Shown piece by piece: positions 26,641 to 45,942 of a stretch of DNA of 64,000 bases. The notes beneath the pieces were generated by a model that saw only the letters and a program-made list of their open reading frames with translations, had not been told where the DNA came from and did no database searches. Location: NCBI GenBank assembly GCA_963751035.1, contig CAVVSW010000005.1, forward strand, positions 1,072,425 to 1,136,424. The letters run 5' to 3'. The stretch is from an uncultured Actinomycetota bacterium (GTDB taxonomy: Bacteria; Actinomycetota; Actinomycetes; JACCUZ01). The first letter of the stretch is position 1. Every line of letters begins with the position of its first letter. A program made the translations under genes and the position numbers.

Positions 26641-26681
26641 GGGTCACTAACGGAAGAGAGGTGTAGGGCCGCGCCAACGGC

Positions 26682-28088
26682 TCAGGAGGCTTGGCTCACC
26701 GAGGACATGTTGAAGTCGGCGATCCGCCAGGCCGGCATTGCCGTACGGGTGAAGTAGTCGTTCCACTCGCGGGCCAGCGTCCGCTCGGTCAGGCCCACCT
26801 CGGCGAGGCGGCCGAGCAGGGCAACGGGGCTCTCGTTGAACCGGAAGTTGTTGACCTCCGCGACGACCTCGCCGCCTTCGACCAGGTAGACGCCGTCGCG
26901 GGTGAGCCCGGTCAGCAGGAGGGTCTGGGGCTCCACCTCGCGGATGTACCAGAGGCAGGTCAGCAGCAAGCCGCGCTCGGTGTCGGCGATCATCGCCTCC
27001 AGACCCCGGGTCGCGTCGCGCTGACTCGAACAGCAGGTTGTCCACGCCCGGTGTGAACGGCAGGCCGGTCAGCTCGGCCGAGTGCCGCGTCTGCATCAGG
27101 GCGGTCAGCGAGCCGTCGTTGAGCCAGTCGGTCGAGTTGATCGGCAGGCCGTTGTCGAACACCGACTGGGCTGCGTTGGACGAACCCGCGACGACGAACG
27201 GCTCGCACTCGAGCCCCTCTGCGGCGGGGTCGCTCCACATCCGCACGGGCGTCTCGGTGAGGCGCTCGCCCACCCGCGTGCCACCGCCGGCACGGCTGAA
27301 CACGGTTTTGCCGTCGTTGGCGTCACGCGCGACCGAGGACCAGTACTGGTAGATGAGCAGGTCGGCCACGGCGCTGGGAGGGAGCAGCGTCTCGTAGCGA
27401 CCGGCGGGCAGGTCGACGCGCCGCTGCGCCCAGCCCAGCCTGCGGCGCACCTCTGCGTCCAGCGCCGACACGTCCACGTCGGTGAAGTCGCGGGTGCCCT
27501 GGCCCACCCAGGTCGAGCGACTCCAGTCAGCAGACTTCCCGGTCAGCTCGATGCGACCCGACGGCTGGGCGTGGCGCCGGCGGAGACCGGTGGACGTCGC
27601 CAGATAGGCCGTCTCGACATAGTGCTCGGCGAAGCCGAACAGGTCACGCTGGTCGCCGCGGGCAGCCGTGAACGCCTCCCCGAGCGCAGGCGCGACGTCA
27701 CCGAAGACGCCGATGGACGTCTCGGTCGGCGGGTCGTCCCAGGTCGCGTCGGCACCCTCAGCCTCCGGGAGCGGGCGTGCGTCCTCCGCGGACCGCGACT
27801 CCTGGGCCTTGGCCTCGGCGGCGCGCACGATCGACTCGACCTCGTCCAGGCCGACGTTGCTGCGCGAGACCACGCCGGCAGCCGTCCCCTCCTGCCCGCC
27901 GATCGTCGCGATCACGGTGAGGGTCCGCCCGCGGGTCACGCCGTTGGTCGTCAGGGTGTTGCCGGCCCAGCGCAGGTTTGCCTCGCTGGTCTCCTCGGCG
28001 ATCACCACGCAGCCGTCGGCGATGGAGATCTCCAGGGCGCGCTCGGCGAGCTCCTGCGGCCGAAGCGCGGAGCCGGTCGACGCGGTGC

Positions 28089-28092
<4 letters not shown>
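26682..28092 (-). pseudogene. pmbA: TldE/PmbA family metalloprotease modulator (frameshift near 27000)
   Basis: The N-terminal 370 aa (MSTASTGSALRPQELAERALEISIADGCVVIAEETSEANLRWAGNTLTTNG…) and the C-terminal 103 aa (…GLLLTCLWYIREVEPQTLLLTGLTRDGVYLVEGGEVVAEVNNFRFNESP…) lie in different frames. It is translationally coupled to tldD. Confidence 0.8.
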
Positions 28093-30395
<2,303 letters not shown>

Positions 30396-30396
30396 G

Positions 30397-31164
30397 ATGG
30401 GACTGCTCGACGGCAAGCGCATCCTGATCACGGGCGTGCTGATGGACTCGTCCATCGCCTTCCACGTGGCGCGGATCGCGCAGCAGGAGGGCGCCGAGGT
30501 GGTGCTCACCTCCTTCGGGCGCACGATGCGGATCACGCAGACGATCGCCAAGCGGCTACCCAGCACCCCACCGGTGATCGAGCTCGACGCCAGCAACGCC
30601 GATGACTTCGCCGCTATGGCCGACCGGGTGCGCGAGCACGTCGACGGCCTCGACGGGGTGCTGCACTCGATCGGCTTCGCCCCGGAGGCCGCGCTCGGCG
30701 GCAACTTCCTCAACACGGAGTGGCCCGACGTGGCGACGGCGGTGCAGATCTCGGCGTACTCGTTGAAGGCGCTCGCGGTCGCCGCACAACCACTGATGCC
30801 CGCAGGCGGCGCGGTGGTCGGACTCACTTTCGATGCGACGGTCGCCTGGCCGAAGTACGACTGGATGGGTGTGGCCAAGGCGGCGTTCGAGTCGACCGCG
30901 CGCTACCTCGCGCGCGACCTGGGGCCGAAGGAGATCCGCGTCAACCTGGTGGCCGCCGGGCCGCTGAAGACGACCGCGGCCAAGTCGATCCCGGGGTTCG
31001 AGGAGTTCGAGGGTGTCTGGTCGACCCGCGCCCCGCTGACGTGGGACATCTCCGACTTCGAGCCGGCGGCGCGGGCGTGCGTGGCACTGATGTCGGACTG
31101 GTTCCCGCGCACCACCGGGGAGATCGTGCACGTCGACGGCGGCGTGCACGCCATGGGCGCCTGA
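30397..31164 (+). CDS. inhA: NADH-dependent enoyl-[ACP] reductase (InhA/FabI)
   Basis: The protein reads MGLLDGKRILITGVLMDSSIAFHVARIAQQEGAEVVLTSFGR…LDGVLHSIGFAP…YDWMGVAKAAFESTARYLARDLGPKEIRVNLVAAGPLKT. It has the InhA signature, with the catalytic Y and K in YxxMxxAK. It starts 2 nt after the fabG stop. Confidence 0.85.
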   Translation: MGLLDGKRILITGVLMDSSIAFHVARIAQQEGAEVVLTSFGRTMRITQTIAKRLPSTPPVIELDASNADDFAAMADRVREHVDGLDGVLHSIGFAPEAALGGNFLNTEWPDVATAVQISAYSLKALAVAAQPLMPAGGAVVGLTFDATVAWPKYDWMGVAKAAFESTARYLARDLGPKEIRVNLVAAGPLKTTAAKSIPGFEEFEGVWSTRAPLTWDISDFEPAARACVALMSDWFPRTTGEIVHVDGGVHAMGA

Positions 31165-31170
31165 CGGACC

Positions 31171-32892
31171 GTGCCTGCTCCGGCCGAGCCGTCTGCGCCG
31201 TCTGCGCTGGTCGAGCTGCGCGTCCTCGACGGGGCGAACCTCTACTTCCCCCGACCCGCGGTCAAGCTCACCCTCGACCTGACCCGGCTGCTGGCGATGG
31301 ACGAGGGCGCGGCTCGGACCGCTGCGGAGCAGGTCGGGATGCGCGGGGCTCGGCCGGGCGGCGCCGGCACCGGGCTGAGGCAGCGGTTCGCCGCGCGGTT
31401 GGTCGCCGGGCTGGTACGACGGGTGGCCGCCGAGTCGGGGACCACCCGCCTCGCCGTCCGTAGCCGCCCGACCGGTGACCTGCGCCGGATCGTGGTCGCC
31501 TACCCGTGGCGACGCCGCGGACGGGCCGAGGCGCTGGGACTGGCGGTGGCGGCGGTGCTCGACGCCGTGCCGGCGCCGGACCTGACGACCGTGCTGACCG
31601 ACGCGGTGGACTCGGTGCGGTCGGCCGAGCCGGGTGACGTCCCCACCACGCGGCGGCCGCGGGTCCCCCTGGTCGCCGTGACCGGCACCAACGGGAAGAC
31701 GACGACGTCGCGGATGGTGGCCCGGATGGGGCGGTGCGCCGGCCTGGTCGTCGGCTGGTCGTCCACGGACGGCGTCTACATCGACGGTGAGCTCGTCGAG
31801 CCCGGCGACTACTCCGGTCCGAGCGGCGCGGCAGCGGTCCTCGACGACCCACGGGTGCAGCTCGCGGTCACCGAGACGGCGCGGGGCGGCATCCTGCTGC
31901 GCGGCCTCGGTGTGACGCACACCGACGTCTCGGTGGTGACCAACGTCAGCGCCGACCACCTCGGCCTGCAGGGCGTGGACACGGTCGACCAGCTGGCCGA
32001 GGTCAAGGCCGTCATCACCCGGGTGATCCGACCCGACGGCTGGGTGGTGCTCAACGGCGACGACCCGAGGACGTTCGCGATGCGGCTGGCCGCGTCGGCA
32101 CGTGCGGTCGTGTTCTCGCGCGATCCGGACTCGCCCTCGATCCGCCAGGTGCTCAACGAGGGCGGCCGGGCCGTGACCGTGATCGACGGCGCGATCACGT
32201 TCCTGGGCCGGTCGCATCCCGATGCGCTGCTGCCGGTCGTCGACGTGCCGATGACGCTGGCCGGGCTGTCGCACTTCAACGTCGAGAACGCGCTCGCCGC
32301 GACCGCCGCGGGGCTGTCGGTCGGCTTGTCGCGCGAGGCGGTGATCGAGGGACTGCGGTCGTTCCGGCCCGGACCGGCGGACAACCCCGGGCGGATGAAC
32401 GTGTACGACGTGCGCGGCGTGACCGTCGTCCTCGACCTTGCGCACAACGAGGCCGGAGTGGCGGCCCTGGTCGAGGTGCTCCACGGGCTGCGCGCACCCG
32501 GCGGAACCGTCCGGCTGGTGCTGGGCAGCCCGGGTGACCGGACCGACGACATCATCCGCGGCATCGGTGAGCTCGGTGCCCGGGGCGCCGACCGGGTCGT
32601 CATCGGGCACAAGGAGTACTACCTGCGCGGCCGCCCGGCGGAGGAGCTGGCCGGGTTGCTGGTCGCGGGTGCGGCCGCGGTGGGTGTGCACGACGTACCG
32701 ATCCATCCGACCGAGCTCGCGGCCGTGCAGGCGCTGGTCGCCGAGTCGGCGCGTGGTGACGTGGTCGGCGTGATGTGCCACGCCGAACGGACGGCGATCG
32801 AGGAGTGGCTGGCGGCGGAGGGCGCCTCCATCGACGGCCCCGACGAGATCCGCGCCAAGGTCCTGGCCGCCCACCCCCGCTCCTCCACGTGA
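31171..32892 (+). CDS. cyanophycin-synthetase-like protein: CphA N-domain fused directly to a Mur-ligase (M) domain, with no ATP-grasp (G) domain
   Basis: The protein is 573 aa and intact. Residues 12-160 (ALVELRVLDGANLYFPRPAVKLTLDLTRL…RSRPTGDLRRIVVAYPW) align with the N-domain of the neighbouring 921-aa CphA (IIESRVYRGPNLWSYDPAVHLVVELGSL…RSTGIRGQYNVVYGF). Residues 165-573 form a complete Mur-ligase domain. Its motifs are the P-loop VAVTGTNGKTTTSRM, TETARGG, NVSADHLG, LNGDDP, LDLAHNEAG and LGSPGDRTDD, each matching CphA's FEVARGG / NIAPDHLG / LNADDE / VDYCHNAPG / VGAAGDRRDD. The GTG start lies 6 nt after the inhA stop. Confidence 0.75.
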   Translation: MPAPAEPSAPSALVELRVLDGANLYFPRPAVKLTLDLTRLLAMDEGAARTAAEQVGMRGARPGGAGTGLRQRFAARLVAGLVRRVAAESGTTRLAVRSRPTGDLRRIVVAYPWRRRGRAEALGLAVAAVLDAVPAPDLTTVLTDAVDSVRSAEPGDVPTTRRPRVPLVAVTGTNGKTTTSRMVARMGRCAGLVVGWSSTDGVYIDGELVEPGDYSGPSGAAAVLDDPRVQLAVTETARGGILLRGLGVTHTDVSVVTNVSADHLGLQGVDTVDQLAEVKAVITRVIRPDGWVVLNGDDPRTFAMRLAASARAVVFSRDPDSPSIRQVLNEGGRAVTVIDGAITFLGRSHPDALLPVVDVPMTLAGLSHFNVENALAATAAGLSVGLSREAVIEGLRSFRPGPADNPGRMNVYDVRGVTVVLDLAHNEAGVAALVEVLHGLRAPGGTVRLVLGSPGDRTDDIIRGIGELGARGADRVVIGHKEYYLRGRPAEELAGLLVAGAAAVGVHDVPIHPTELAAVQALVAESARGDVVGVMCHAERTAIEEWLAAEGASIDGPDEIRAKVLAAHPRSST

Positions 32893-32937: not shown

Positions 32938-33369
32938 CTACATCGGCTCGAGGATGGCGACGGGAATCGTGCGGCCGGCCCGTCTGGCGTACTTCGCCAC
33001 CTCCGGTGCCTGAGCCAGCACCACGTCGTTCCACATCAGGTCACGCTGCTCGCCGACGAGCTCCCTCGGCCGAGCCCGTATCCGCGTGGACCGGATCTGC
33101 ACGTCCGCAACCTCCACCGCGCGCAGGTTGCGGAACCAGTCTGGGTCGCGCGGGGAACCCGAGCCGGTGCCCCAGACGAGATAGCCACCGTCCACATCGA
33201 GATAGCGGACGCACGTGGATCGGGGAATCCCGGTTCGTCGCCCGGGTGTCGTGATCATCAGGACGTGGACCTTCTTGCTGCCACTGGCCATCCGTCCGTC
33301 GAGAGTCCGGTACATCCACACTCCGATGCGGTTCCCGATCCTCGTCATCCGGCGCTTGTCGCTGCTCAT
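32938..33369 (-). CDS. deazaflavin(F420)-dependent nitroreductase family protein (DUF385 / Ddn-like)
   Basis: The protein is 143 aa and reads MSSDKRRMTRIGNRIGVWMYRTLDGRMASGSKKVHVLMITTPGRRTGIPRSTCVRYLDVDGGYLVWGTGSGSPRDPDWFRNLRA…. It has the characteristic split-barrel DUF385 motifs (TTGRKSG-like, DWYRNL). Confidence 0.65.
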   Translation of the reverse strand: MSSDKRRMTRIGNRIGVWMYRTLDGRMASGSKKVHVLMITTPGRRTGIPRSTCVRYLDVDGGYLVWGTGSGSPRDPDWFRNLRAVEVADVQIRSTRIRARPRELVGEQRDLMWNDVVLAQAPEVAKYARRAGRTIPVAILEPM

Positions 33370-33747: not shown

Positions 33748-36513
33748 CTACCAGGCGTCCGCGACAACGCCCGATTCGGCTTGGTCATCACGAGGACGGG
33801 GGTGGGTGCCGGCCTGGGCCTGCGAGGACAGGATCTCCAGCTCCGCGAGTACCGGGCCGTGCTTGTCCACGCACAGGACGACCAGGTCGCCGGGGTTGGC
33901 GCGGGCCATCGAGTGGTGCACGGCGGGGATCTCGTCCAGCACCAGCTCGATCTGCTTGCAGCGGGCGCCCTCGGCCATCCGCGCCCGGCCGCCCTCGGCG
34001 ACGAGCTCGGCGGCGACGCCGCGCTTGCGCCCGCGCAGCACCGAGTCCTCCCGGATCACGAGGACGTCGAAGTGCTCGGCGGCGACGGCTCCCAGCTCGC
34101 GGATGTCGTCGTCGCGGCGGTCACCGGCGGCCCCGACCATGCCGATCCGCGAGGGCTTCGCCAGGTCGGTCAACGCGGCGTGGCTCTCGCTGAGCTGCTC
34201 GACGAAGTCACCCAGCATCCGCATCCCCGGAGCGTTGTGGCAGTAGTCGACGATCACGGTGGTCCCGCCGACCTCGATCTGGTTCAGGCGACCGGGGGAC
34301 AGGTAGTAGGACGTGGTGAACGTCCGCAGGCCCTGCCGGATGTCGTGCAGGTGTGCGCCCGCTGCGAAGGCGGCGGCCGCAGCAGCCAGGGAGTTCTGCA
34401 CGTTCATCTTCGCCCGGCCGCCGAACGTCGCCGGGAGCAGGTGGGTCCACGCGAGCTGCATCGACCGGCGGCCGTGCCGGATCACGATCATCTCGCCCAG
34501 CTCGCCGCGCTCGAGGACCACCGCACGCCCGCCGCGACGGCAGTGGTCGTCGATCATCTCGGCGATCTCACTCCCGGTGTCGCCCATCGAGAACCACACC
34601 ACCTGGCCGGAGCACCGGCGGCGCATGGCGCGGACCAGCTCGTCGTCGGCGTTGAGGACGGCGAAGCCATCCCGCGGCACGGCCTCGACGATCACCGCCT
34701 TGACCTGCGCCAGCTGTTCCAGCGTGTCGATGCCGCGCATCCCCAGGTGGTCGGGCGCGATGTTGAGGACCACCGCGACGTCATTGCGTTCGTAGCCCAG
34801 CCCCTCGCGCAGGATCCCGCCGCGCGCCACCTCGAACACCGCGAAGTCGACCCGGGGGTTCTGCAGCACCATCCGCGCCGACTTGGGTCCCGACGCATCG
34901 GCGCGGATCACGAGCCGCTCGTCGATGACGATGCCGTCGGTCGATGTCATCCCGACCTTGCGGCCCATGCCCTTGAAGACATGGGCGATCATCCGCGCCG
35001 TCGTCGTCTTCCCATTCGTCCCGGTCACCGCCACGATCGGGATGCGGCTGGGCGCACCGGGTGGGAAGAGCGAGTCGACGACCGGCTTCGCGACGTACTG
35101 CGCCTCTCCCTCGGTGGGGTGGGTGTGCATCCGGAACCCGGGCGCCGCGTTGACCTCGCAGATCGCGCCGCCGGCCTCGCGCACCGGCTCGGAGATGTCC
35201 GGTGCGATGAAGTCGATGCCGGCGACGTCGAGCCCCACCACGCGAGCCGCCTCCTCGGCGATCTCGACGTTGTCCGGATGTGCCTCGAGCGTCCGGTCGA
35301 TCGAGATTCCGCCGGTGGACATGTTGCCGGTGAGGGTCAGCTTGACCGTCGTACCGGCTGCTGGCACGTCGTCCAGGCCGAGTCCCTGCTCGCGGACGAG
35401 TTCTTCCGCCGCTTCGTCGAGCTTGATGCGCGTCAGGACCTTCTCGTGGCCGTAGCCGCGCCGCGGGTCGGCGTTGGTCTCCTCGACCAGCTGGCGCACC
35501 GTCAGCGACCCGTCGCCGATGACGTGCGCGGGAGTCCGCTCGGCCAGCGCCACCATCTTCCCGCCGATCACCAGCACGCGGTAGTCCTTGCCGGTTATGA
35601 ACGACTCGACCACGACCGAGCCGCGACGTGACTCCGACTCGGCGATCGGGAACGCCGTGGTCAGCTCCGCGTCGTCGGTGATGCCGAGCACGACGCCGCG
35701 GCCATGGTTGCCGTCCAGCGGCTTGCACACGACGGGGTAGCCGATGCGGTGCGCCGCGCGCAGGGCCTGGTCGAGCGTGCGGACCGCCTCGGCCCTCGGC
35801 ACCGGCAGGCCCGCGGCGGCGAGCAGCCGGGTGGTGAGCACCTTGTCGCCGGCGATGTCGACGGCCAGCGCGCTCGTCTTGGACGTCATGGTCGCCCGGA
35901 TGCGCTGCTGGTGGACACCCTGGCCGAGCTGGACGAGGGAGTATTCGTTGAGCCGCAGCCACGGGATGTCGCGCGACATCGCCTCGTCGACGATCGCCTG
36001 GGTCGAGGGGCCGAACGCCGTGCGCTCGGCCGCGATGTGGAAGGCCTCCAGCTCGGCGTCGAAGTCGAAGCCGGGCTCGGCCTGCACGAGGTGGTTGACC
36101 AGGCGTACGGCGAGGTGCCCGGCGCTCAGGCCGACGCGCTCCTCGACGAACCCGTAGACGACGTTGTACTGCCCGCGGATGCCGGTGCTGCGCGTCTTGC
36201 CGCGGCGCAGGTCGTGCCCGGCCTCCTGCTGGAGCTGCAGGGCCACGTGCTCGGCCACGTGGCCCAGCCAGGTGCCCTCCTTGAGCCGCTCGAGGAACCC
36301 GCCGCGCTTGCCGCGCGAGCAGGTGTGCCGGGCGAGATTGGGCAGCGCCTCCATCAGCCCGTCGACGAAGCCGGGGATGGTGTTGCTCGGGTGGTCCTCC
36401 AGCGAGCCGAGCTCGACGACGAGGTGCACAGCGGGGTCGTAGGACCACAGGTTGGGTCCGCGGTATACCCGGCTCTCGATGATGGTCAGGTCGGGGGCGG
36501 CCGGCGGCGTCAC
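33748..36513 (-). CDS. cphA: cyanophycin synthetase CphA (N, ATP-grasp G and Mur-ligase M domains; intact 921 aa)
   Basis: The N-domain reads LTIIESRVYRGPNLWSYDPAVHLVVELGSLEDHPSNTIPGFVDGL. The ATP-grasp domain reads KVLTTRLLAAAGLPVPRAE…GYPVVCKPLDGNHGRGVVLGI…VVVESFITGKDYRVLVIGGKMVALAER…TGNMSTGGISIDRT…ICEVNAAPGFRMHTHP. The M-domain reads IVAVTGTNGKTTTARM…FEVARGG…NIAPDHLG…LNADDE…VDYCHNAPG…GAAGDRRDDD. The GTG start overlaps the cphB stop (GTGA). Confidence 0.9.
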   Translation of the reverse strand: MTPPAAPDLTIIESRVYRGPNLWSYDPAVHLVVELGSLEDHPSNTIPGFVDGLMEALPNLARHTCSRGKRGGFLERLKEGTWLGHVAEHVALQLQQEAGHDLRRGKTRSTGIRGQYNVVYGFVEERVGLSAGHLAVRLVNHLVQAEPGFDFDAELEAFHIAAERTAFGPSTQAIVDEAMSRDIPWLRLNEYSLVQLGQGVHQQRIRATMTSKTSALAVDIAGDKVLTTRLLAAAGLPVPRAEAVRTLDQALRAAHRIGYPVVCKPLDGNHGRGVVLGITDDAELTTAFPIAESESRRGSVVVESFITGKDYRVLVIGGKMVALAERTPAHVIGDGSLTVRQLVEETNADPRRGYGHEKVLTRIKLDEAAEELVREQGLGLDDVPAAGTTVKLTLTGNMSTGGISIDRTLEAHPDNVEIAEEAARVVGLDVAGIDFIAPDISEPVREAGGAICEVNAAPGFRMHTHPTEGEAQYVAKPVVDSLFPPGAPSRIPIVAVTGTNGKTTTARMIAHVFKGMGRKVGMTSTDGIVIDERLVIRADASGPKSARMVLQNPRVDFAVFEVARGGILREGLGYERNDVAVVLNIAPDHLGMRGIDTLEQLAQVKAVIVEAVPRDGFAVLNADDELVRAMRRRCSGQVVWFSMGDTGSEIAEMIDDHCRRGGRAVVLERGELGEMIVIRHGRRSMQLAWTHLLPATFGGRAKMNVQNSLAAAAAAFAAGAHLHDIRQGLRTFTTSYYLSPGRLNQIEVGGTTVIVDYCHNAPGMRMLGDFVEQLSESHAALTDLAKPSRIGMVGAAGDRRDDDIRELGAVAAEHFDVLVIREDSVLRGRKRGVAAELVAEGGRARMAEGARCKQIELVLDEIPAVHHSMARANPGDLVVLCVDKHGPVLAELEILSSQAQAGTHPRPRDDQAESGVVADAW

Positions 36514-37382
36514 CGGTCGTCCTCCTCGGTCTGACGACGGAGCTGGTGAGCGAGGTGGGTCTCGGCGAAGGACAGCAGCCGGCGCTCGCTCAGGTCGAAG
36601 TGGGCACCCTGCGGCAGCGTGTGGACGACGGCGCCGGAGACCAGCATCGGTGCGCCGTGCTCGGCGAGGTGGGCGTCGCTGACCGCATGGGCCGCGTCGA
36701 CGATGAACACGCAGCCCCGGCCGATGACCTCGAGGAACCGGCCGCCCTTGATGACTGCGGCGGTGTCCTCGTCGATGCCGATCCCGACCAGGCTCGGCGA
36801 GCGGGCCGCGAGGGAGAGCAGCCGGCCGTACCGGCTGCGCTGGTCGAAGTGCTGGTCGACCACGACGCCGGGCAGCAGGCCTAGCCCGGCCGACGTCTGG
36901 GTCATGCCTTGGCGCGGGGTGTCGCCCTCGGACCCGAAGGCCACCATGTGCTCGCTGACGACGCTTGCGCCGGCCGACGTGCCGCCGACGACCGCGCCGC
37001 GCTCATAGGCTGCCCGGACCGCGTCGCCGAACCGCGTGCCCGTGATGACGGAGGACAGCTTGACCTGGTTGCCGCCGGTCATGAAGACCGCGTCCACGTC
37101 GGCGAGCTGGTCGGCGACCTGCGGGTCATCGGCCTCGGCCCGGTTCTCGGGGCGCAGCAGGACCGACTCGGCGGCACCGAGGTCGGCGAAGATCGCGTCG
37201 TAGGTGTCCAGGATCTCCGGCCCCAGCGACGAGGCGGTGGCCACGATGGCCACCCGCGAACCGTTGCCGCCGGCCAGCTCCAGGAACTTGCGGAGCACCG
37301 CCTTGCGCCCGATCCGGTCCTCGCCGCCCCCGATGACGAACAGGGTCCCGGCGGCAACCGGCGTGACGGAGCGATGTGGCAC
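36510..37382 (-). CDS. cphB: cyanophycinase CphB (peptidase S51)
   Basis: The protein reads …TLFVIGGGEDRIGRKAVLRKFLELAGG…VAIVATASSLGPEILDTYDAIFADLGA…AVFMTGGNQVKLSSV…GAVVGGTSAGASVVSEHMVAF (Ser nucleophile in GTSAGA)…VVDQHFDQRSRYGRLLSLAA…GIGIDEDTAAVI. The upstream part of the listed 423-aa ORF is Arg/Ala-rich junk. The likely start is GTG at 37382. It is immediately upstream of cphA, giving the cphBA operon order. Confidence 0.85.
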   Translation of the reverse strand: MPHRSVTPVAAGTLFVIGGGEDRIGRKAVLRKFLELAGGNGSRVAIVATASSLGPEILDTYDAIFADLGAAESVLLRPENRAEADDPQVADQLADVDAVFMTGGNQVKLSSVITGTRFGDAVRAAYERGAVVGGTSAGASVVSEHMVAFGSEGDTPRQGMTQTSAGLGLLPGVVVDQHFDQRSRYGRLLSLAARSPSLVGIGIDEDTAAVIKGGRFLEVIGRGCVFIVDAAHAVSDAHLAEHGAPMLVSGAVVHTLPQGAHFDLSERRLLSFAETHLAHQLRRQTEEDDR

Positions 37383-37450
37383 GGCCCTGAGCGTACGACG
37401 TCGGGCACGCTCCGCGTTGCTCGTAGCCACGGGTCGGGCATGATGCGGAC

Positions 37451-37937
37451 ATGCGGCTCTACCTGATGCGTCACGCCAAAGCAGCGTCGGAGGAGGGAGC
37501 GCCCGACCACGAGCGACCCCTGACCGAGCGGGGTGTTGCCGACGCTCGCACCATGGGCCGGTGGTTGCGCGACCACGGTGGCACGCCGGATGCCGTGTGG
37601 TGCTCCTCGGCGCTGCGGGCCCGCCAGACCTGGTCGGCGGTCGCGACGGAGCTGACATCGACCCCGGACGCGCCCGAACCGTCGTACCTGCGCTCGGTCT
37701 ACCAAGCCGGCCCCGGCGACCTGGTCGACCTGCTGCGCGATGTCGCACCCGAGCGTCGAGTCGGTGCTCATCCTCGGCCACAACCCGACTCTGGAGCAGG
37801 CGCTCGCCGGGCTGACGGGGGATCCGCGAGACCTCCCGACGGGCGCGATCGCCGCACTCGACGTGACCGGCTCGTGGTCAGCGCCCACCTCGTTCGAGCT
37901 GGCCGAGCTCGCCACCCCGAAGACGGAGCGGGCGTGA
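37451..37937 (+). pseudogene. sixA: phosphohistidine phosphatase SixA / histidine phosphatase family (frameshift near 37745)
   Basis: The N-terminal frame reads MRLYLMRHAKAASEEGAPDHERPLTERGVADARTMGRWL (RHG motif). The C-terminal frame reads …SVESVLILGHNPTLEQALAGLTGDPRDLPTGAIAALDV…. Confidence 0.6.
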
Positions 37938-41796: not shown

Positions 41797-43066
41797 CAGA
41801 CGGTGACCGCTGGCCCTTGCCGATGACCACGATCCCGCCGTCGGAGACGGTGAAGCCGCGCTCGCGGTCCTGGTCGAGGTCGACGCCGATCTGGCGCCCT
41901 CGGGGACCACGACGTTCTTGTCGAGGATCGCGTTGCGCACGACGGCGTGCCGGCCGACTGCACGTTGTCCATGAGCACGGAGCCGCGTGACGCTCGGCCC
42001 ACGAGTGGACCTGACGTTCGGGGACACGACCGAGTCGCTCGACGCAGCGAGCCGGAGACGACGACGCCGGGGGAGACCATCGAGTCGACCGCCCGGCCGC
42101 TCCGGCCGCTCCTCGTTGTGCACGAACTTCGCCGGCGGCATCGGGTCGTGCGACGTGTAGATGGGCCAGTCGTAGTTGTAGAGGTTGAAGATCGGGTGCA
42201 CCGAGATCAGGTCCATGTGGGCCTCGTAGAAGGAGTCGAGCGTCCCGACGTCGCGCCAGTAGCCGCGGTCGCGGTCCGTCGAGCCCGGGCACGTCGTTGT
42301 CGCTTGAAGTCGTAGACCTGGGCCGTCGCCCTTGTCGACGAGCATCGGGATGATGTCGCCGCCCATGTCGTGCTTGCTCGCCGGGTTCAGCGCGTCGCGG
42401 CGCAGGGCGTCGAGCAGCACGTCGGTCGTGAAGACGTAGTTGCCCATCGACGCGTAGACCTGCGTCGGGCGCGTCGGCGAGCCCTTCGGCGTCCTTCGGC
42501 TTCTCCCGGAACGCCGAGATCGTGCCGCCCGTCGCTCGGCCGGTCTCGATGACGCCGAACTGGTCGGCGAGCGTCAGATCGGCTGGCGGATCGCGGCGAC
42601 GGTCACGCCCGCGCCCGGACGTCGATGTGCTGGTGCGACCATCTGGCTGCGGGTCCATGCGGTAGATGTGGTCGGCGCCGAAGACGATGACGTAGCTCGG
42701 GCCGCTCGTCGTAGATGAGGTTGAGGCTCTGGTAGATCGCGTCGGCGGAGCCGGCGAACCACCGCGGGCCGAGCCGCTGCTGCGCCGGCACCGGGGTCAC
42801 GTAGTTGCCGAGCAGCGTCGACATGCGCCACGTCGCGGTGATGTGGCGGTCGAGGCTGTGGCTCTTGTACTGCGTCAGCACGACGATCTTGCAGGAAGCC
42901 CGCCGTTGACGAGGTTGGACAGCACGAAGTCGATGAGCCGGTAGATGCCGCCGAAGGGCACCGCCGGCTTGGCCCGGTCGGCGGTCAGCGGCATCAGCCG
43001 CTTGCCCTCGCCGCCGGCCAGCACGATCGCGAGCACCTTGCAGCCATGGCTGAACTTACCGCTCAC
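41797..43066 (-). pseudogene. glgC: glucose-1-phosphate adenylyltransferase GlgC (multiple frameshifts)
   Basis: The fragments read [54 protein letters not shown] / [58 protein letters not shown] / …[13 protein letters not shown]…[13 protein letters not shown] / …MGNYVFTTDVLLDALR…MGGDIIPMLV…RDRGYWRDVGTLDSFYEAHMDLISVHPIFNLYNYDWPIYT… / …AILDKNVVVPEGA…VSDGGIVVIGKGQR. Together they cover the whole of GlgC. It is divergent from glgA. Confidence 0.8.
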
Positions 43067-43112
43067 GGGGCGTCAGCCGAAACACCTGTCGCGACGCGCG
43101 AGTCATCGCGCC

Positions 43113-44310
43113 GTGCGCGTCGACCTGCTGACCCGTGAGTACCCGCCCGAGGTCTACGGCGGCGCCGGCGTGCACGTCGAGTACCTCGCCCGCGAGCTGC
43201 GCGCGCCTGGCCGACGTGCGGGTGCACTGCTTCGGCGCCCCGCGCGACGAGCCGGGCGTCACGGCGTACGACGAGCCCGCCGGGCTCGCCGGCGCCAACG
43301 CCGGCGCTGCGGACGCTGGGCGTCGACCTGGCGATGGCGGCCGGCTGCGCCGGCGCCGACGCTCGTGCACAGCCACACCTGGTACGCCAACATGGCCGGC
43401 CACGTCGCGAAGCTGCTGCACGGCATCCCGCACGTGATGACGACGCACAGCCTCGAGCCGCTACCGGCCGTGGAAGGCCGAGCAGCTCGGCGGCGGCTAC
43501 GCGCTGTCGTCGCTGGGCCGAGCGGACGGCGATCGAGGCGGCCGACGCGGTCATCTCGGTGTCGCGCCGGCATGCGCGACGACGTGCTTCGCTGCCTATC
43601 CCGGCGGTCGACCCCGACCGGGTCGACGTGGTCCACAACGGCATCGACACCGAGGAGTACTCGCCGGACCGCGGCACCGACGTGCTCGAGCGCCAGGGCA
43701 TCGACCCCGACCGGCCGAGCGTCGTCTTCGTCGGGCGCATCACCCGGCAGAAGGGGCTGCCGCTACCTGCTGCGCGCGGCCGCGCTCGCTCGACCCGGCG
43801 GTGCAGCTGGTGCTCTGCGCCGGCGCCCCGGACACCGACGGAGATCGGCGCGGAGGTCACCGGGCTCGTCGAGGAGCTGCGCGGCGACCGCGGCGGCGTC
43901 GTGTGGATCGCACGAGATGCTGCCCAAGCCGGACGTGATCCAGCTCCTGACCCACGCGACCGTGTTCGTCTGCCCGTCGATCTACGAGCCGATGGGCATC
44001 GTCAACCTCGAGGCGATGGCGTGCGAGGCGCCGGTGGTGGCCACCGCCACCGGCGGCATCCCGGAGGTCGTGGCCGACGGCGAGACCGGGCTGCTGGTGC
44101 CGATCGAGCAGGTCGCCGACGGCACCGGCACCCCGATCGACCCCGACCGGTTCGAGGCCGACCTCGCCGCGCGGCTCAACGAGCTGCTCGGCCGACCCGG
44201 CGCGCGCGCGAGCGATGGGCAAGGCGGGCCGGCGCCGCGCCGTCGAGCACTTCTCCTGGGCGGCGATCGCGGAGCGCACGCTGGAGGTCTACCGCTCGGC
44301 TGCTCTGAGC
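43113..44310 (+). pseudogene. glgA: glycogen synthase GlgA (GT4/GT5, actinobacterial type; multiple frameshifts)
   Basis: The fragments read VRVDLLTREYPPEVYGGAGVHVEYLARELR / LADVRVHCFGAPRDEPGVTAYDEP… / …HSHTWYANMAGHVAKLLHGIPHVMTTHSLEPL… / …AIEAADAVISVS…VDVVHNGIDTEEY…VVFVGRITRQKGLP…VFVCPSIYEPMGIVNLEAMACEAPVVATATGGIPEVVADGETGLLVP… / …MGKAGRRRAVEHFSWAAIAERTLEVYRSA. The 46-bp divergent intergenic region is shared with glgC. Confidence 0.75.
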
Positions 44311-45121
44311 CGCCGTCAGGCCGATCGGCCGGCGCGCTGCAGGCGGCTTCAGCGCGCGCCGGGCGCGCCGGTCTCGACGTCGCGCAGCGGCTCGCCGCTG
44401 CGCGGCGCCATCTCGCCCGCGGACACGCTGCGCCGCCGTCGGCTCCGCGGCCAGCTCGACGATCGCGCCGACCCGCGCGCAGCGGCGTCGCCAGCACGGG
44501 CGGCGCGCGCGGGGCGCCGTGGCCGGCAGCGAGGCTGCGTCCGGCGCCGCGGTGCGCCGGCCTGGGCGAGCGCCTCGGCCACCGCCGGGCCGCCACCGGG
44601 CGACGTCGAGGCGGACCAGCTCCTCGGTGGCCTCGCGCAGCGCTGCTGCAGCTCGCGTCGGCCTCCGCGAGACGGCAGCTCGGGAGCGCCGCGGCGTCAC
44701 CGCTGCGCCGATCCAGCGGACGGCGTCCAGGCGAGCCGCGGCTCTCGTCGGCACGCAGGCCGAGGGCGGTCGGCCCGGCGGCCAGCACCGCCTCGCCGGC
44801 CTCGACGGCCAGCTCGTTGAACGCCGCGCGGCCCGGGCAGGCCGGCGACGTCGCCGGGCGCCGGCAGCGCGAGCGCGCAGCCGCGTACGCCGAGGGCGCG
44901 CAGCCGGCCGAGCGCCAGCGTGACGGCGACGTCATCGGCCTCGCCGGGCAGGCCGCTGACACGCGTGGGCGGGTCGTCGGCGCCGGTGATGCGCGTCGGC
45001 GGCCTCGTCCGGGCTCGACGCGCCCGGGCAGGACGGCGTTGCCCCACGCGGCGAGCCGGGCGGCGCGCGGCAGCTCGAGCATCGGCCAGCGAGGCCTGAG
45101 GGCCGCGTCGGTGCTCGTAGG

Positions 45122-45942
45122 TTGCGCGGCGCATGTACTCGACTGCTCCTCGACTCTGCGCGGCGTCTCGGCTGGTGCGCGACGGCGCCCGGCTGCTGCG
45201 ACGACGTCGACTGGAGGTCGCCGAGGGCGAGCGCTGGGTGGTGCTCGGGCCGAACGGCGCGGGCAAGACGACGCTGCTCCAGCTCGCGTCGGCGCAACCT
45301 GCACCCCACGCCGCGGCGACGGCGTCGGATCCTCGGCGAGCACGCTGGGCGCGGTCGACGTCTTCGAGCTGCGGCCGCGCATCGGCCTGTCCAGCGCGGC
45401 GCTCGCCGACCGGCTGCCGGCGAGGGAGACGGTGCGCGACGTCGTCGTCACCGCGTCGTACGCCGTGTCGGGCCGGTGGCGGGAGAACTACGACGAGCTC
45501 GACAGCGCGCGGGCCGCGAGCTGCTCGACGCGATGGGCGTCGGGCCGCCTGGCCGAGCGGCGGTTCGGCACGCTGTCGCGAGGGCGAGCGCAAGCGGGTG
45601 CAGATCGCCCGCGCGCTGATGGCCGACCCCGAGCTGATGCTGCTCGACGAGCCCGCGGCCGGGCTCGACCTGGGCGGCCGGGAGGACCTCGTACGCCGGC
45701 TCGGCGAGCTCGGCGGCCGACCCGGCCGCGCCGGCGCTCGTCCTGGTGACCCACCACGTGGAGGAGATCCCGCCCGGCTTCACCCACGTCCTGCTGCTGC
45801 GCGGCGGGCCGCGTCGTCGCGCAGGGTCCGCTGCGAGACCACGCTGACCGGCGACGACCTGGCGCGAGACGTTCGGCCTCCCGCTGGAGCTGCGAGCGCC
45901 GCGGCGGCCGCGTGGTCAGCCCGCGCGACGCACGGCGCGTGA
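45122..45942 (+). pseudogene. ABC transporter ATP-binding protein (frameshifted; substrate unknown)
   Basis: It reads …LEVAEGERWVVLGPNGAGKTTLLQL (Walker A) / …VFELRPRIGLSSAALADRLPARETVRDVVVTASYAVSGRWRENYDELD… / …[37 protein letters not shown]…LVLVTHHVEEIP. These are the ABC motifs spread over at least three frames. The antisense strand shows the typical ABC shadow ORF. Confidence 0.6.

What the first reader, a model, noticed from the sequence alone, without database searches (positions are those of the whole stretch)
31171..32892. Cyanophycin-synthetase paralogue reduced to N-domain + Mur-ligase domain (no ATP-grasp domain), with intact ligase motifs
A canonical cyanophycin synthetase (CphA1) has three domains. 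The N domain holds the growing polymer. The ATP-grasp G domain adds Asp to the backbone. The Mur-ligase M domain adds Arg to the Asp side chain. The 573-aa protein here has a recognisable CphA N domain. Its motif RVxxGxNLxxxxPAVxL and its C-terminal RxTGxxxxxVVxYxF/W both align to the neighbouring full-length CphA. Straight after it comes a complete M domain in which every catalytic motif is conserved: the GTNGKTT P-loop, ExxRGG, NxxxDHLG, NxDD, DxxHN and GDR. The whole G domain (about 300 aa) is missing. It was removed cleanly at the domain boundary, not by a frameshift, and the ORF is intact. I do not know of a characterised enzyme with this N+M-only architecture. Three roles seem plausible. 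It could be a dedicated side-chain (beta-carboxyl) amino-acid ligase that decorates poly-Asp or existing cyanophycin, possibly with a residue other than Arg. It could be a primer-processing partner for the adjacent CphA. Or it could act on an unrelated carboxylate polymer. Whatever the role, its activity would be coupled to the upstream fabG1-inhA operon rather than to cphBA.
Basis: partly seen in the sequence, partly recalled or inferred. Interest (0 to 1): 0.85.

Follow-up and report, generated by a model that had tools for sequence, protein, structure and literature searches.

The report
Cyanophycin synthetase paralogue lacking ATP-grasp domain
This intact gene encodes a cyanophycin-synthetase relative that keeps the polymer-holding N domain and the side-chain (Arg-adding) ligase domain but has no backbone-building domain; it belongs to an apparently uncharacterised family found beside normal cyanophycin genes in at least five bacterial phyla, so it probably finishes or modifies the nitrogen-storage polymer.

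Summary
Window 31171-32892 (+) is an intact 573-aa ORF with strong coding signal. Residues 164-542 are a complete CphA-type Mur-ligase (M) domain with every catalytic motif. Residues ~10-157 are a remote homologue of the CphA N domain, supported by profile and fold comparison but invisible to Pfam. There is no ATP-grasp (G) domain, only a ~12-residue linker.

It is neither a one-off nor a recent deletion. Hundreds of ~545-585-aa homologues exist in Actinomycetota and Chloroflexota. A sister subfamily occurs in Myxococcota, Acidobacteriota and Xanthomonadales-type Gammaproteobacteria. In an NJ tree the G-less proteins form a clade apart from CphA1 M domains, with moderate support.

In 12 of 13 informative actinobacterial/Chloroflexia-type loci a full cphA1, usually with cphB, lies within 10 kb. 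In Nannocystis and Luteimonas the G-less gene directly follows cphA1 on the same strand. The fabG-inhA linkage is confined to Actinomycetota.

The N-like domain lacks the Cx19HxxEH peptidase motif and is strongly basic.

Most likely it is a stand-alone ATP-dependent amino-acid ligase acting on Asp side-chain carboxylates of cyanophycin. That activity is inferred, and the amino acid added is unknown. I found no description in the searchable literature. It is a new variant of a known kind, of moderate to high interest.

The parts
31171..32892 (+). Complete ORF of the G-less CphA paralogue (573 aa, GTG start, TGA stop)
   Evidence: GC3 0.92. Full-length homologues at 63-93% identity.
31198..31641 (+). 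CphA-N-like domain (residues ~10-157). Secondary structure is beta-beta-alpha-alpha-alpha-beta-beta-alpha-alpha. It is basic (net +8, 23 Arg) and has no Cx19HxxEH motif.
31642..31659 (+). Core of the short linker that takes the place of the ~300-aa G (ATP-grasp) domain of CphA1
   Evidence: Alignment ends. No ATP-grasp Pfam hit.
31678..32310 (+). Mcore (Pfam Mur_ligase_M, residues 170-380). Contains ExxRGG (31873-31890), NxxxDHLG (31942-31965), K279 and NGDD (32053-32064).
31684..31704 (+). ATP-binding P-loop GTNGKTT (residues 172-178)
32389..32775 (+). Mlid (Pfam Mur_ligase_C, residues 407-535). Contains DLAHN (32434-32448), GDR (32533-32541; the family has GDRT where CphA1 has GDRR) and YLRGR (residues 484-488).
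33748..36513 (-). Neighbouring full-length cphA1 (921 aa; N with Cx19HxxEH, plus G, plus an intact M), convergent with the finding
   Evidence: TIGR02068 1160 bits against a cutoff of 850. Pfam results. M domain intact at 65 of 67 conserved positions.
36510..37781 (-). cphB cyanophycinase (Peptidase_S51). The ORF as listed has a ~140-aa N-terminal extension, so the true start is probably internal.
   Evidence: TIGR02069 221.9 bits against a cutoff of 126.6. Also.
29391..31164 (+). fabG-like and inhA-like SDR genes immediately upstream. inhA stops 6 bp before the finding's start codon, so co-transcription is likely.
   Evidence: The same arrangement occurs in L001-L007, L009, L083 and L084. No terminator-like or promoter-like site found between 29000 and 34000.

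Best explanation
The gene encodes a functional member of an old, conserved family of 'G-less' cyanophycin-synthetase paralogues. Each consists of a catalytically silent, CphA-type N domain packed against a complete, catalytically competent Mur-ligase-type M domain (Mcore + Mlid).

The proposed mechanism follows the M-domain step of CphA1. [quoted passage not shown] An amino acid then attacks the acyl-phosphate to form an isopeptide bond. Arg is the default assumption, and Lys or another amine is possible.

Without a G domain the protein cannot extend the backbone. It must therefore work in trans on chains made by the neighbouring CphA1, filling in, completing or diversifying side chains.

Shown here: the architecture, the conservation of catalytic residues, the family distribution and the gene linkage. 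Inferred: the substrate, the amino acid added and the in-trans mode of action.
For: 1. The catalytic machinery is kept. 56 positions that are >=90% conserved in 74 CphA1 M domains are identical in 43 family members. Only six such positions differ. 50 positions are shared by both G-less subfamilies and CphA1.
2. The closest sequence and structure matches are CphA1 M domains, not MurC-F, MurT or FolC.
3. The N-like domain has the CphA N fold. In the full-length model it is placed on M as in SuCphA1 (pTM 0.80; TMq 0.75-0.77 over N and M).
4. [quoted passage not shown] N + M is therefore a self-sufficient substrate-binding unit.
5. The loop NLYFPR is invariant. It corresponds to the hydrophobic N-domain loop that contacts M in SuCphA1 (PMC9262961).
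6. Gene linkage. A full cphA1, usually with cphB, lies within 10 kb in the window, L001, L003-L009, L042 (Chloroflexia), L083 and L084. The sister subfamily follows cphA1 on the same strand: directly in N. exedens (amidohydrolase-cphB-cphA1-G-less, 22-bp gap) and in Luteimonas (cphB-cphA1-G-less, 10-bp gap), about 170 bp downstream in L088, and about 2 kb downstream (P-loop to P-loop) in Plesiocystis L045 and the acidobacterial L049.
7. The neighbouring CphA1 has its own intact M domain. The paralogue therefore adds a function and does not replace a dead domain.
Against: There is no biochemical evidence, and substrate and product are inferred by homology only.

Two homologues show no cph genes within 8-10 kb: L010 (Sphaerobacteraceae) and L087 (Thermoanaerobaculia).

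Several family-specific features differ from CphA1. The N domain is strongly basic (mean +7.5 against -4.8 for CphA1 N domains). GDRR becomes GDRT, D803 is lost, and S545 becomes G. These could mean a different acceptor or a different amino acid. The sister subfamily has largely lost the NxDD motif.

In Actinomycetota the tight operon-like link is to fabG-inhA, not to cphA1, which lies convergent.

It is unclear why a cell with a complete CphA1 would need extra M activity.
Confidence: 0.5

Rival explanations
1. It is a stand-alone Mur-type ligase or polymerase with a product of its own. It might make beta-Asp-Arg or short primers from free amino acids. It might instead build or decorate a different acidic polymer or small peptide, as CapB/PgsB or FPGS do by repeated additions at a single Mur-ligase site. 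On this reading the link to cyanophycin is only metabolic, through the shared Asp/Arg pool.
For: Mur-ligase-family enzymes can act iteratively without a second domain (established knowledge of CapB and FPGS; both are listed as family members in PMC11915815). The N domain is strongly basic, unlike the acidic CphA1 N domain, which would suit a purely anionic substrate such as naked poly-Asp. Family-specific changes sit near the GDR motif of Mlid. Some members have no cph genes nearby.
Against: Nearly all residues conserved in CphA1 M domains are retained. The N-M arrangement that forms the cyanophycin cleft is retained. Adjacency to cphA1 recurs in five phyla.
Confidence: 0.2
2. Its role is tied to fatty-acid (FAS-II) metabolism rather than to cyanophycin. 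It would be co-transcribed with fabG-inhA and would ligate an amino acid to some carboxylate related to lipid or cell-envelope synthesis.
For: There is a 6-bp gap to inhA in the window. The fabG-inhA-N+M order is the same in L001-L007, L009, L083 and L084. Fused inhA-N+M ORFs appear in metagenomes (P0115; P0126). In L084 an ACBP gene overlaps the 3' end of the gene.
Against: The adjacency is confined to Actinomycetota, where the whole region is a conserved chromosomal block: TldD/PmbA ... fabG-inhA ... cphA1-cphB ... Rv1486c-like. It is absent in L008, L081, L042, L010 and the whole sister subfamily. The M domain is specifically CphA-like.
Confidence: 0.1
3. It is a non-enzymatic or regulatory partner. 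It would co-assemble with CphA1 through N/M contacts and tune oligomer state, primer handling or granule formation.
For: CphA1 and CphA2 oligomerise through M/G and N contacts, and the CphA2 N domain serves stability only (PMC10273328; PMC9427784). The N-like domain is catalytically dead.
Against: The P-loop, the Mg/acyl-phosphate residues, K279, DHLG and GDR are invariant across subfamilies that are only ~39% identical. That pattern is hard to explain without catalysis.
Confidence: 0.1
4. It is a decaying remnant of a disrupted cphA.
For: It is shorter than CphA1 and lies beside a full cphA1.
Against: The ORF is intact with GC3 0.92. The ~545-585-aa length is conserved in hundreds of representatives. 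The proteins form a separate clade. There is no ATP-grasp fragment upstream.
Confidence: 0.02

Closest known systems
Cyanophycin synthetase 1 (CphA1; TIGR02068; structures 7LG5, 7LGM, 7WAC)
   Same: It has the same M-domain type: 36-39% identity, with 56 of 62 CphA1-conserved M positions identical. It has the same N-domain fold and the same N-on-M packing. It occurs in the same gene neighbourhood.
   Different: It has no G (ATP-grasp) domain, so it cannot polymerise the backbone. Its N domain lacks the Cx19HxxEH peptidase motif and is basic instead of acidic. It scores 386 bits against the 850-bit family cutoff. Its Mlid has GDRT where CphA1 has GDRR.
Cyanophycin synthetase 2 (CphA2; 7TA5, 8FXH)
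   Different: The reduction is the opposite one. CphA2 keeps an active G domain and a truncated, inactive M domain, and it repolymerises beta-Asp-Arg. This protein keeps a complete M domain and has no G domain. PMC10206079 describes CphA2 as a cyanobacterial enzyme; the G-less genes surveyed here were in other phyla, and none lay beside the cyanobacterial cphA1 loci sampled.
MurE/MurF-type Mur ligases
   Same: It has the same central and C-terminal domains and ATP-dependent acyl-phosphate chemistry: P-loop, DHLG His, a Lys (K279) that I take, from general Mur-ligase knowledge rather than any test here, to correspond to the carbamylated Lys of MurD/E/F, and the GDR Arg.
   Different: Scores are weak (95 bits or less against cutoffs of 257-1023). 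The N-terminal UDP-binding domain is replaced by the CphA N fold. It is not located in a cell-wall (dcw) cluster.
Betaproteobacterial tandem cphA pairs (seen in L080)
   Same: They are another case of two CphA-family genes side by side with divided or degenerate domains.
   Different: Both of those genes keep a G domain. One of them has a degenerate M domain without a P-loop. They are not G-less.

Membership tests
CphA1 (cyanophycin synthetase, TIGR02068) | Full-length match above the curated cutoff (850 bits) | tested here: not met
   386.4 bits, covering model positions 472-854 only. The neighbouring gene scores 1160.8.
CphA1 (cyanophycin synthetase, TIGR02068) | ATP-grasp G domain that extends the Asp backbone | tested here: not met
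   No ATP-grasp Pfam family is hit. CphA1 residues ~171-471 have no counterpart.
CphA1 (cyanophycin synthetase, TIGR02068) | Mur-ligase M domain (Mcore + Mlid) with catalytic residues | tested here: met
CphA1 (cyanophycin synthetase, TIGR02068) | CphA N domain (PF18921 fold) | tested here: met
CphA1 (cyanophycin synthetase, TIGR02068) | N-domain Cx19HxxEH metallopeptidase motif (primer-independent CphA1s) | tested here: not met
   The aligned segment reads RQRFAARLVAGLVRRVAAE. The neighbouring CphA1 has C..HVAEH.
CphA1 (cyanophycin synthetase, TIGR02068) | Makes cyanophycin from Asp, Arg and ATP | not testable with these tools
   Needs an enzyme assay.
CphA2 | Active G domain plus a truncated, inactive M domain | tested here: not met
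   The G domain is absent, and the M domain is complete with intact motifs. Definition from PMC10273328.
Mur ligase superfamily (PF08245 + PF02875) | Central and C-terminal Mur-ligase domains above the gathering scores | tested here: met
   71.6 against 24 bits and 51 against 28.4 bits.
Mur ligase superfamily (PF08245 + PF02875) | Membership of a named cell-wall, folate or MurT equivalog (MurC-F, FolC, MurT, Mpl) | tested here: not met
   All of these score far below their cutoffs in NCBIfam.
CapB/PgsB poly-gamma-glutamate synthetase | Sequence match to CapB-type models | tested here: not met
   No CapB/PgsB family appears among the 25 best of 29 NCBIfam hits listed, nor among the Pfam hits.
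G-less CphA paralogue family (defined here) | ~545-630 aa, N-like domain + complete CphA-type M domain, no G domain, forming a clade apart from CphA1 M domains | tested here: met
   The NJ bipartition separating G-less proteins from CphA1 appears in 19 of 30 bootstraps.

The most novel reading that the evidence does not exclude
G-less CphA paralogues would be a third, so far unrecognised functional class of cyanophycin-family enzymes, alongside CphA1 and CphA2. They would be dedicated in-trans side-chain ligases that repair naked Asp residues or install a residue other than Arg, or that act on poly-Asp. They would thereby set the composition and solubility of the storage polymer in Actinomycetota, Chloroflexota, Myxococcota, Acidobacteriota and Xanthomonadales-type bacteria.
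Probability: 0.3. Interest if true: 0.8.

Novelty: new variant of a known kind. Interest (0 to 1): 0.62.

Why it matters
Cyanophycin biosynthesis is currently explained by two enzyme types. CphA1 has all three domains. CphA2 keeps an active G domain and has a dead M domain. A conserved paralogue with the complementary reduction, sitting in cph clusters of several phyla, implies an extra biosynthetic step that current models and genome annotations miss. These proteins are labelled 'Mur ligase family protein', 'UDP-N-acetylmuramyl tripeptide synthase' or, wrongly, 'cyanophycin synthetase'.

If the protein is a free-standing side-chain ligase, it would be a ready tool for making tailored cyanophycin or decorated poly-Asp. 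It would also separate the M-domain reaction from the G-domain reaction for mechanistic study. The hypothesis can be tested directly with one recombinant protein and existing synthetic primers.

Tried and rejected
- Pfam, NCBIfam and PDB-sequence HMM searches for the N region found nothing. Only profile-profile and fold comparison detect it.
The nearest relatives are metagenomic Actinomycetota at 93% identity or less, and named genomes (Kribbella, Nocardioides, Terrabacter) at 51-62%.
- The idea that the paralogue compensates for a dead M domain in the neighbouring CphA1 is rejected. That M domain is intact at 65 of 67 conserved positions.
- The idea of a recent G-domain deletion from the resident cphA1 is rejected. 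Identity to actinobacterial CphA1 (0.39) is hardly higher than to CphA1 from other phyla (0.36), and the G-less proteins cluster together.
- The first NJ tree seemed to break monophyly. The intruder, L034, turned out to be a G-less protein itself.
- Betaproteobacterial tandem cphA pairs were examined as possible relatives. They keep their G domains and are a different arrangement.
- The weak DUF4938 hits in two sister-subfamily members are below threshold and overlap the P-loop region, so they are not informative.
- The promoter and terminator scan of 29-34 kb found nothing either way.
- Ten full-text literature searches found no description of this architecture. Key subscription papers could not be read, namely Sharon et al. 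2021 and the older Steinbüchel-lab genome surveys.
- The first tree script timed out.
Full report
**1. What is at the coordinates**

Window 31171-32892 (+) is an uninterrupted ORF of 573 codons, from GTG to TGA. Its GC content by codon position is 0.78/0.53/0.92, like the other real genes of this ~70% GC window. The upstream neighbour is an enoyl-ACP-reductase (inhA-like) gene that stops 6 bp before the start codon. A fabG-like gene precedes that. Downstream lie three genes on the minus strand:
- a small F420H2-dependent quinone reductase gene (32938-33369);
- a full-length cphA1 (33748-36513; TIGR02068 1160 bits, cutoff 850);
- cphB (36510-37781; TIGR02069 222 bits).

**2. The M domain**

Pfam finds Mur_ligase_M (residues 170-380) and Mur_ligase_C (407-535), both above threshold.

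The best NCBIfam match is cyanophycin synthetase (E 2.6e-115). It covers only model positions 472-854 and scores 386 bits, far below the 850-bit cutoff. MurC-F, FolC, MurT and the other named ligases score much lower.

BLASTP against the neighbouring CphA1 aligns residues 164-536 with 490-881 at 39% identity. A family profile searched against PDB sequences again aligns only with the M domains of the CphA1 structures.

I compared 43 family members with 74 CphA1 M domains taken from loci in many phyla:
- 56 positions that are >=90% conserved in CphA1 are identical in the family. They include the P-loop, ExxRGG, NxxxDHLG, K279, NxDD, DxxHN, GDR and the LRG segment of the YLRGR motif.
- Only six CphA1-conserved positions differ: T523S, S545G, A622G, R800T (so GDRR becomes GDRT), D803 and F815A.

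The catalytic apparatus is therefore intact. The chemistry should be that of the CphA1 M domain. The six differences leave room for altered substrate specificity.

**3. The N-terminal 160 residues**

These residues are strongly conserved within the family: LVELRVLDGxNLYFPRxAxKLTLD, RPG..G.G.RQRFA, GTxRLAxRxRP and VVAYPWR. Ordinary sequence-model searches do not recognise them. Pfam PF18921 gives no hit even at E<=10, and NCBIfam gives nothing.

A profile of this region was searched against 1.84 billion representative proteins.
- It retrieved only 323 proteins at E<=0.001.
- Among the best 150 listed, most are fragments, and the eleven of 500 aa or more measure 535-745 aa.
- No ~900-aa CphA1 appears among those 150.

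The domain is therefore family-specific at HMM level.

Three independent tests nevertheless place it with the CphA N domain:
- HHalign of 43 N-termini against 71 CphA1 N domains gives probability 94.9%, E 4e-8 and 147 aligned columns (residues 10-157 against 8-170).
- An AlphaFold model of residues 1-162 has pLDDT 93.8. Its 13 best Foldseek hits in the PDB are exclusively CphA1 and CphA2 N domains.

The full-length model (pLDDT 86.4, pTM 0.80) aligns to Synechocystis CphA1 over both N and M at once. The alignment spans ~880 columns, TMq 0.75-0.77, and the G domain is simply unmatched. N is thus predicted to sit on M as it does in CphA1.

The aligned 'active-site helix' reads RQRFAARLVAGLVRRVAAE. 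The neighbouring CphA1 has C-x19-HVAEH at this place, which is the metallopeptidase motif that makes primers (PMC9262961). The N-like domain is therefore not a peptidase.

It is also strongly basic. Net charge is +8 in the window protein and averages +7.5 in the family. CphA1 N domains average -4.8, and the co-resident one is -5.

**4. No G domain**

There is no ATP-grasp hit. The N-domain alignment ends where the CphA1 G domain begins, at its 'GPS' motif. The M alignment resumes ~10 residues later. The one caveat is that the N-domain homology is remote, not 'recognisable' from sequence alone.

**5. It is a family, not an accident**

The homologue search returned thousands of hits. The best 120 are mostly 560-590 aa long, and all but a few truncated or fused entries cover 97-100% of the query at 63-93% identity. 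They come from Actinomycetota: Mycobacteriales, Nocardioidaceae, Acidimicrobiales. Sources label them 'Mur ligase family protein' or 'cyanophycin synthetase'.

A genome scan added Kribbella, Nocardioides and Terrabacter, plus two Chloroflexota (L010, L042) at 37-39% identity over the full length.

One sequence that I had first mistaken for a CphA1 M domain (L034, a Nannocystis MAG) proved to be a 563-aa G-less protein. Using it as a query revealed a second large subfamily of 555-630 aa in Myxococcota and Thermoanaerobaculia. Further members occur in Luteimonas (Xanthomonadales), Plesiocystis and an acidobacterial MAG. Its N-terminus shares only the first beta-hairpin and helix with CphA1 N domains (HHalign 81%, 51 columns).

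In neighbour-joining trees of M domains (128 sequences):
- both subfamilies are monophyletic, in 16/30 and 30/30 bootstraps;
- together they form one clade apart from all CphA1 M domains, in 19/30 bootstraps.

Mean identities agree with this. G-less proteins are 0.36-0.39 identical to CphA1, whereas CphA1s are 0.43-0.47 identical to each other. The G-less architecture is therefore old and was not produced by a recent deletion in the resident cphA1. Support for the deepest split is only moderate, and the tree is unrooted.

**6. Gene neighbourhood**

In Actinomycetota the block is (TldD/PmbA)-fabG-inhA-[G-less]-(0-3 small genes)-cphA1(-)-cphB(-). It recurs in the window, L001, L003-L007, L009, L083 and L084. 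L083 also carries an Rv1486c-like gene. The block therefore corresponds to the M. tuberculosis fabG1-inhA region (Rv1483-Rv1486c numbering from my own knowledge, not from a tool), here with cph genes added.

Three contexts lack fabG-inhA. L008 still has cphA1-cphB. An Acidimicrobiales contig also lacks fabG-inhA but ends right after the gene. In Chloroflexia L042 the order is M20 peptidase(-) | G-less(+) | cphA1(-) cphB(-).

In the sister subfamily the gene follows cphA1 on the same strand:
- Nannocystis exedens: amidohydrolase-cphB-cphA1-[G-less], with a 22-bp gap;
- L088: cphA1-[G-less], about 170 bp apart;
- Luteimonas: cphB-cphA1-[G-less], with a 10-bp gap;
- Plesiocystis L045 and acidobacterial L049: a second P-loop gene about 2 kb downstream of the cphA1 P-loop.

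Two members (L010, L087) have no cph genes within 8-10 kb.

Among the 69 loci centred on a CphA1 from other groups (Bacteroidota, Cyanobacteria, Betaproteobacteria and others), three carry an adjacent G-less gene (L018, L045 and L049). A fourth, L057, has a second P-loop gene that my classifier could not assign.

The association that recurs across phyla is therefore with cphA1/cphB. The fabG-inhA association is lineage-specific, although it probably does determine transcription in this genome. The gap is 6 bp, no terminator or promoter motif was found, and occasional fused ORFs occur in metagenomes.

**7. Mechanism**

In CphA1 the M domain phosphorylates the beta-carboxylate of the newly added C-terminal Asp and ligates Arg to it. 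[quoted passage not shown] A protein made of N + M keeps that whole binding unit.

The hydrophobic N-domain loop that contacts M in SuCphA1 corresponds to the invariant NLYFPR here.

The neighbouring CphA1 has a fully conserved M domain. The paralogue therefore adds a capability and does not replace a lost one.

The best-supported model is a stand-alone, ATP-dependent amino-acid ligase that acts in trans on Asp side chains of cyanophycin or poly-Asp made by CphA1. I put this at about 0.5.

Two things cannot be decided from sequence:
- which amino acid is added;
- whether the target is the C-terminal Asp, internal naked Asp residues, or unmodified poly-Asp.

The basic N domain and the GDRT, S545G and D803 changes hint at a difference from CphA1. 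Rivals are listed separately: an autonomous Mur-type ligase or polymerase (0.2), a fatty-acid-linked role (0.1), a non-catalytic partner (0.1) and a pseudogene (0.02).

**8. Comparison with known systems and novelty**

It is not a CphA1. The G domain is absent, the score is below the family cutoff, and the peptidase motif is missing.

It is not a CphA2, which keeps an active G domain and a truncated, dead M domain (PMC10273328).

It is a member of the Mur-ligase superfamily, with the CphA N fold in place of the usual UDP-binding domain 1.

Ten full-text searches and seven cyanophycin, Mur-ligase or genome papers read for this point gave no description of a G-less CphA. A Lysobacter genome paper describes only a 'two-gene cphA-cphB cluster'. 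A Mur-family phylogeny notes two divergent sequences, annotated as MurE and MurF, that it treated as CphA.

The library lacks many subscription papers, so prior mention cannot be excluded. I class the finding as a new variant of a known kind. It is the complementary counterpart of CphA2, and it is directly testable.

Noticed in passing
window 33748-36513 (-), plus L001 and L004-L008: Most actinobacterial CphA1s that co-occur with the G-less gene deviate at two M-domain positions that are >=90% conserved in other CphA1s: Y529 to V (not in L008) and G538 to A or S. The G-less paralogue in this window keeps the consensus Y203 and G212, though the Tyr is not universal (Terrabacter L005 has V). This may indicate subfunctionalisation. 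It is not seen in Nannocystis CphA1.
   Followed up: partly
P0115, P0126, P0146 (metagenome proteins): These ORFs fuse an inhA-like SDR, or part of one, to the N+M protein (825, 408 and 535 aa). They could be real fusions or assembly and gene-calling artefacts caused by the 6-50 bp gap.
   Followed up: no
P0151 (745 aa): This family member carries an extra C-terminal TPR_5 domain after the M domain.
   Followed up: no
L080 4230-9167 (Acidovorax): This is a betaproteobacterial tandem cphA pair. The first gene has an N domain with Cx19HxxEH, a G domain and a degenerate M domain with no P-loop or Mlid. The second gene is a full N+G+M without the peptidase motif. It represents a different way of dividing CphA functions between two genes.
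   Followed up: partly
L042 6679-7899 (-): In the Chloroflexia cluster an M20 peptidase gene lies divergent from the G-less gene, next to cphA1-cphB. It may be a dipeptidase for cyanophycin breakdown. The cphA1 in this MAG appears frameshifted.
   Followed up: no
window 36510-37781 (-): The cphB ORF as delimited has a ~140-aa Arg/Pro-rich N-terminal extension before the Peptidase_S51 domain (residues 147-349). The true start codon is probably internal. It would still overlap the cphA1 stop by 4 bp.
   Followed up: no
window 42945-45749 (+): A 934-aa ORF starts with a sequence that, by eye, resembles a GlgA/GT4 glycosyltransferase (not tested with a family search) and then continues as Arg/Ala/Pro-rich low-complexity translation. 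The region is the most GC-rich of the window (78% at 44-46 kb), and no ORF passed my codon-position GC filter between 41.5 and 47.1 kb. Frameshifts or overlapping frames are possible.
   Followed up: no
window 26647-29597 (-): A TldD/PmbA metallopeptidase gene pair lies just upstream of fabG. The same pair sits in the same place in L084 and L085, so it belongs to the conserved actinobacterial block.
   Followed up: no
sister subfamily (P0271-P0390, L018, L086, L088): The Myxococcota/Xanthomonadales-type G-less proteins keep GDRRDDD as CphA1 does. They have largely lost the NxDD motif (N621 to G, D624 to S) that the actinobacterial subfamily retains. The two subfamilies may differ in how they bind the acceptor.
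   Followed up: partly
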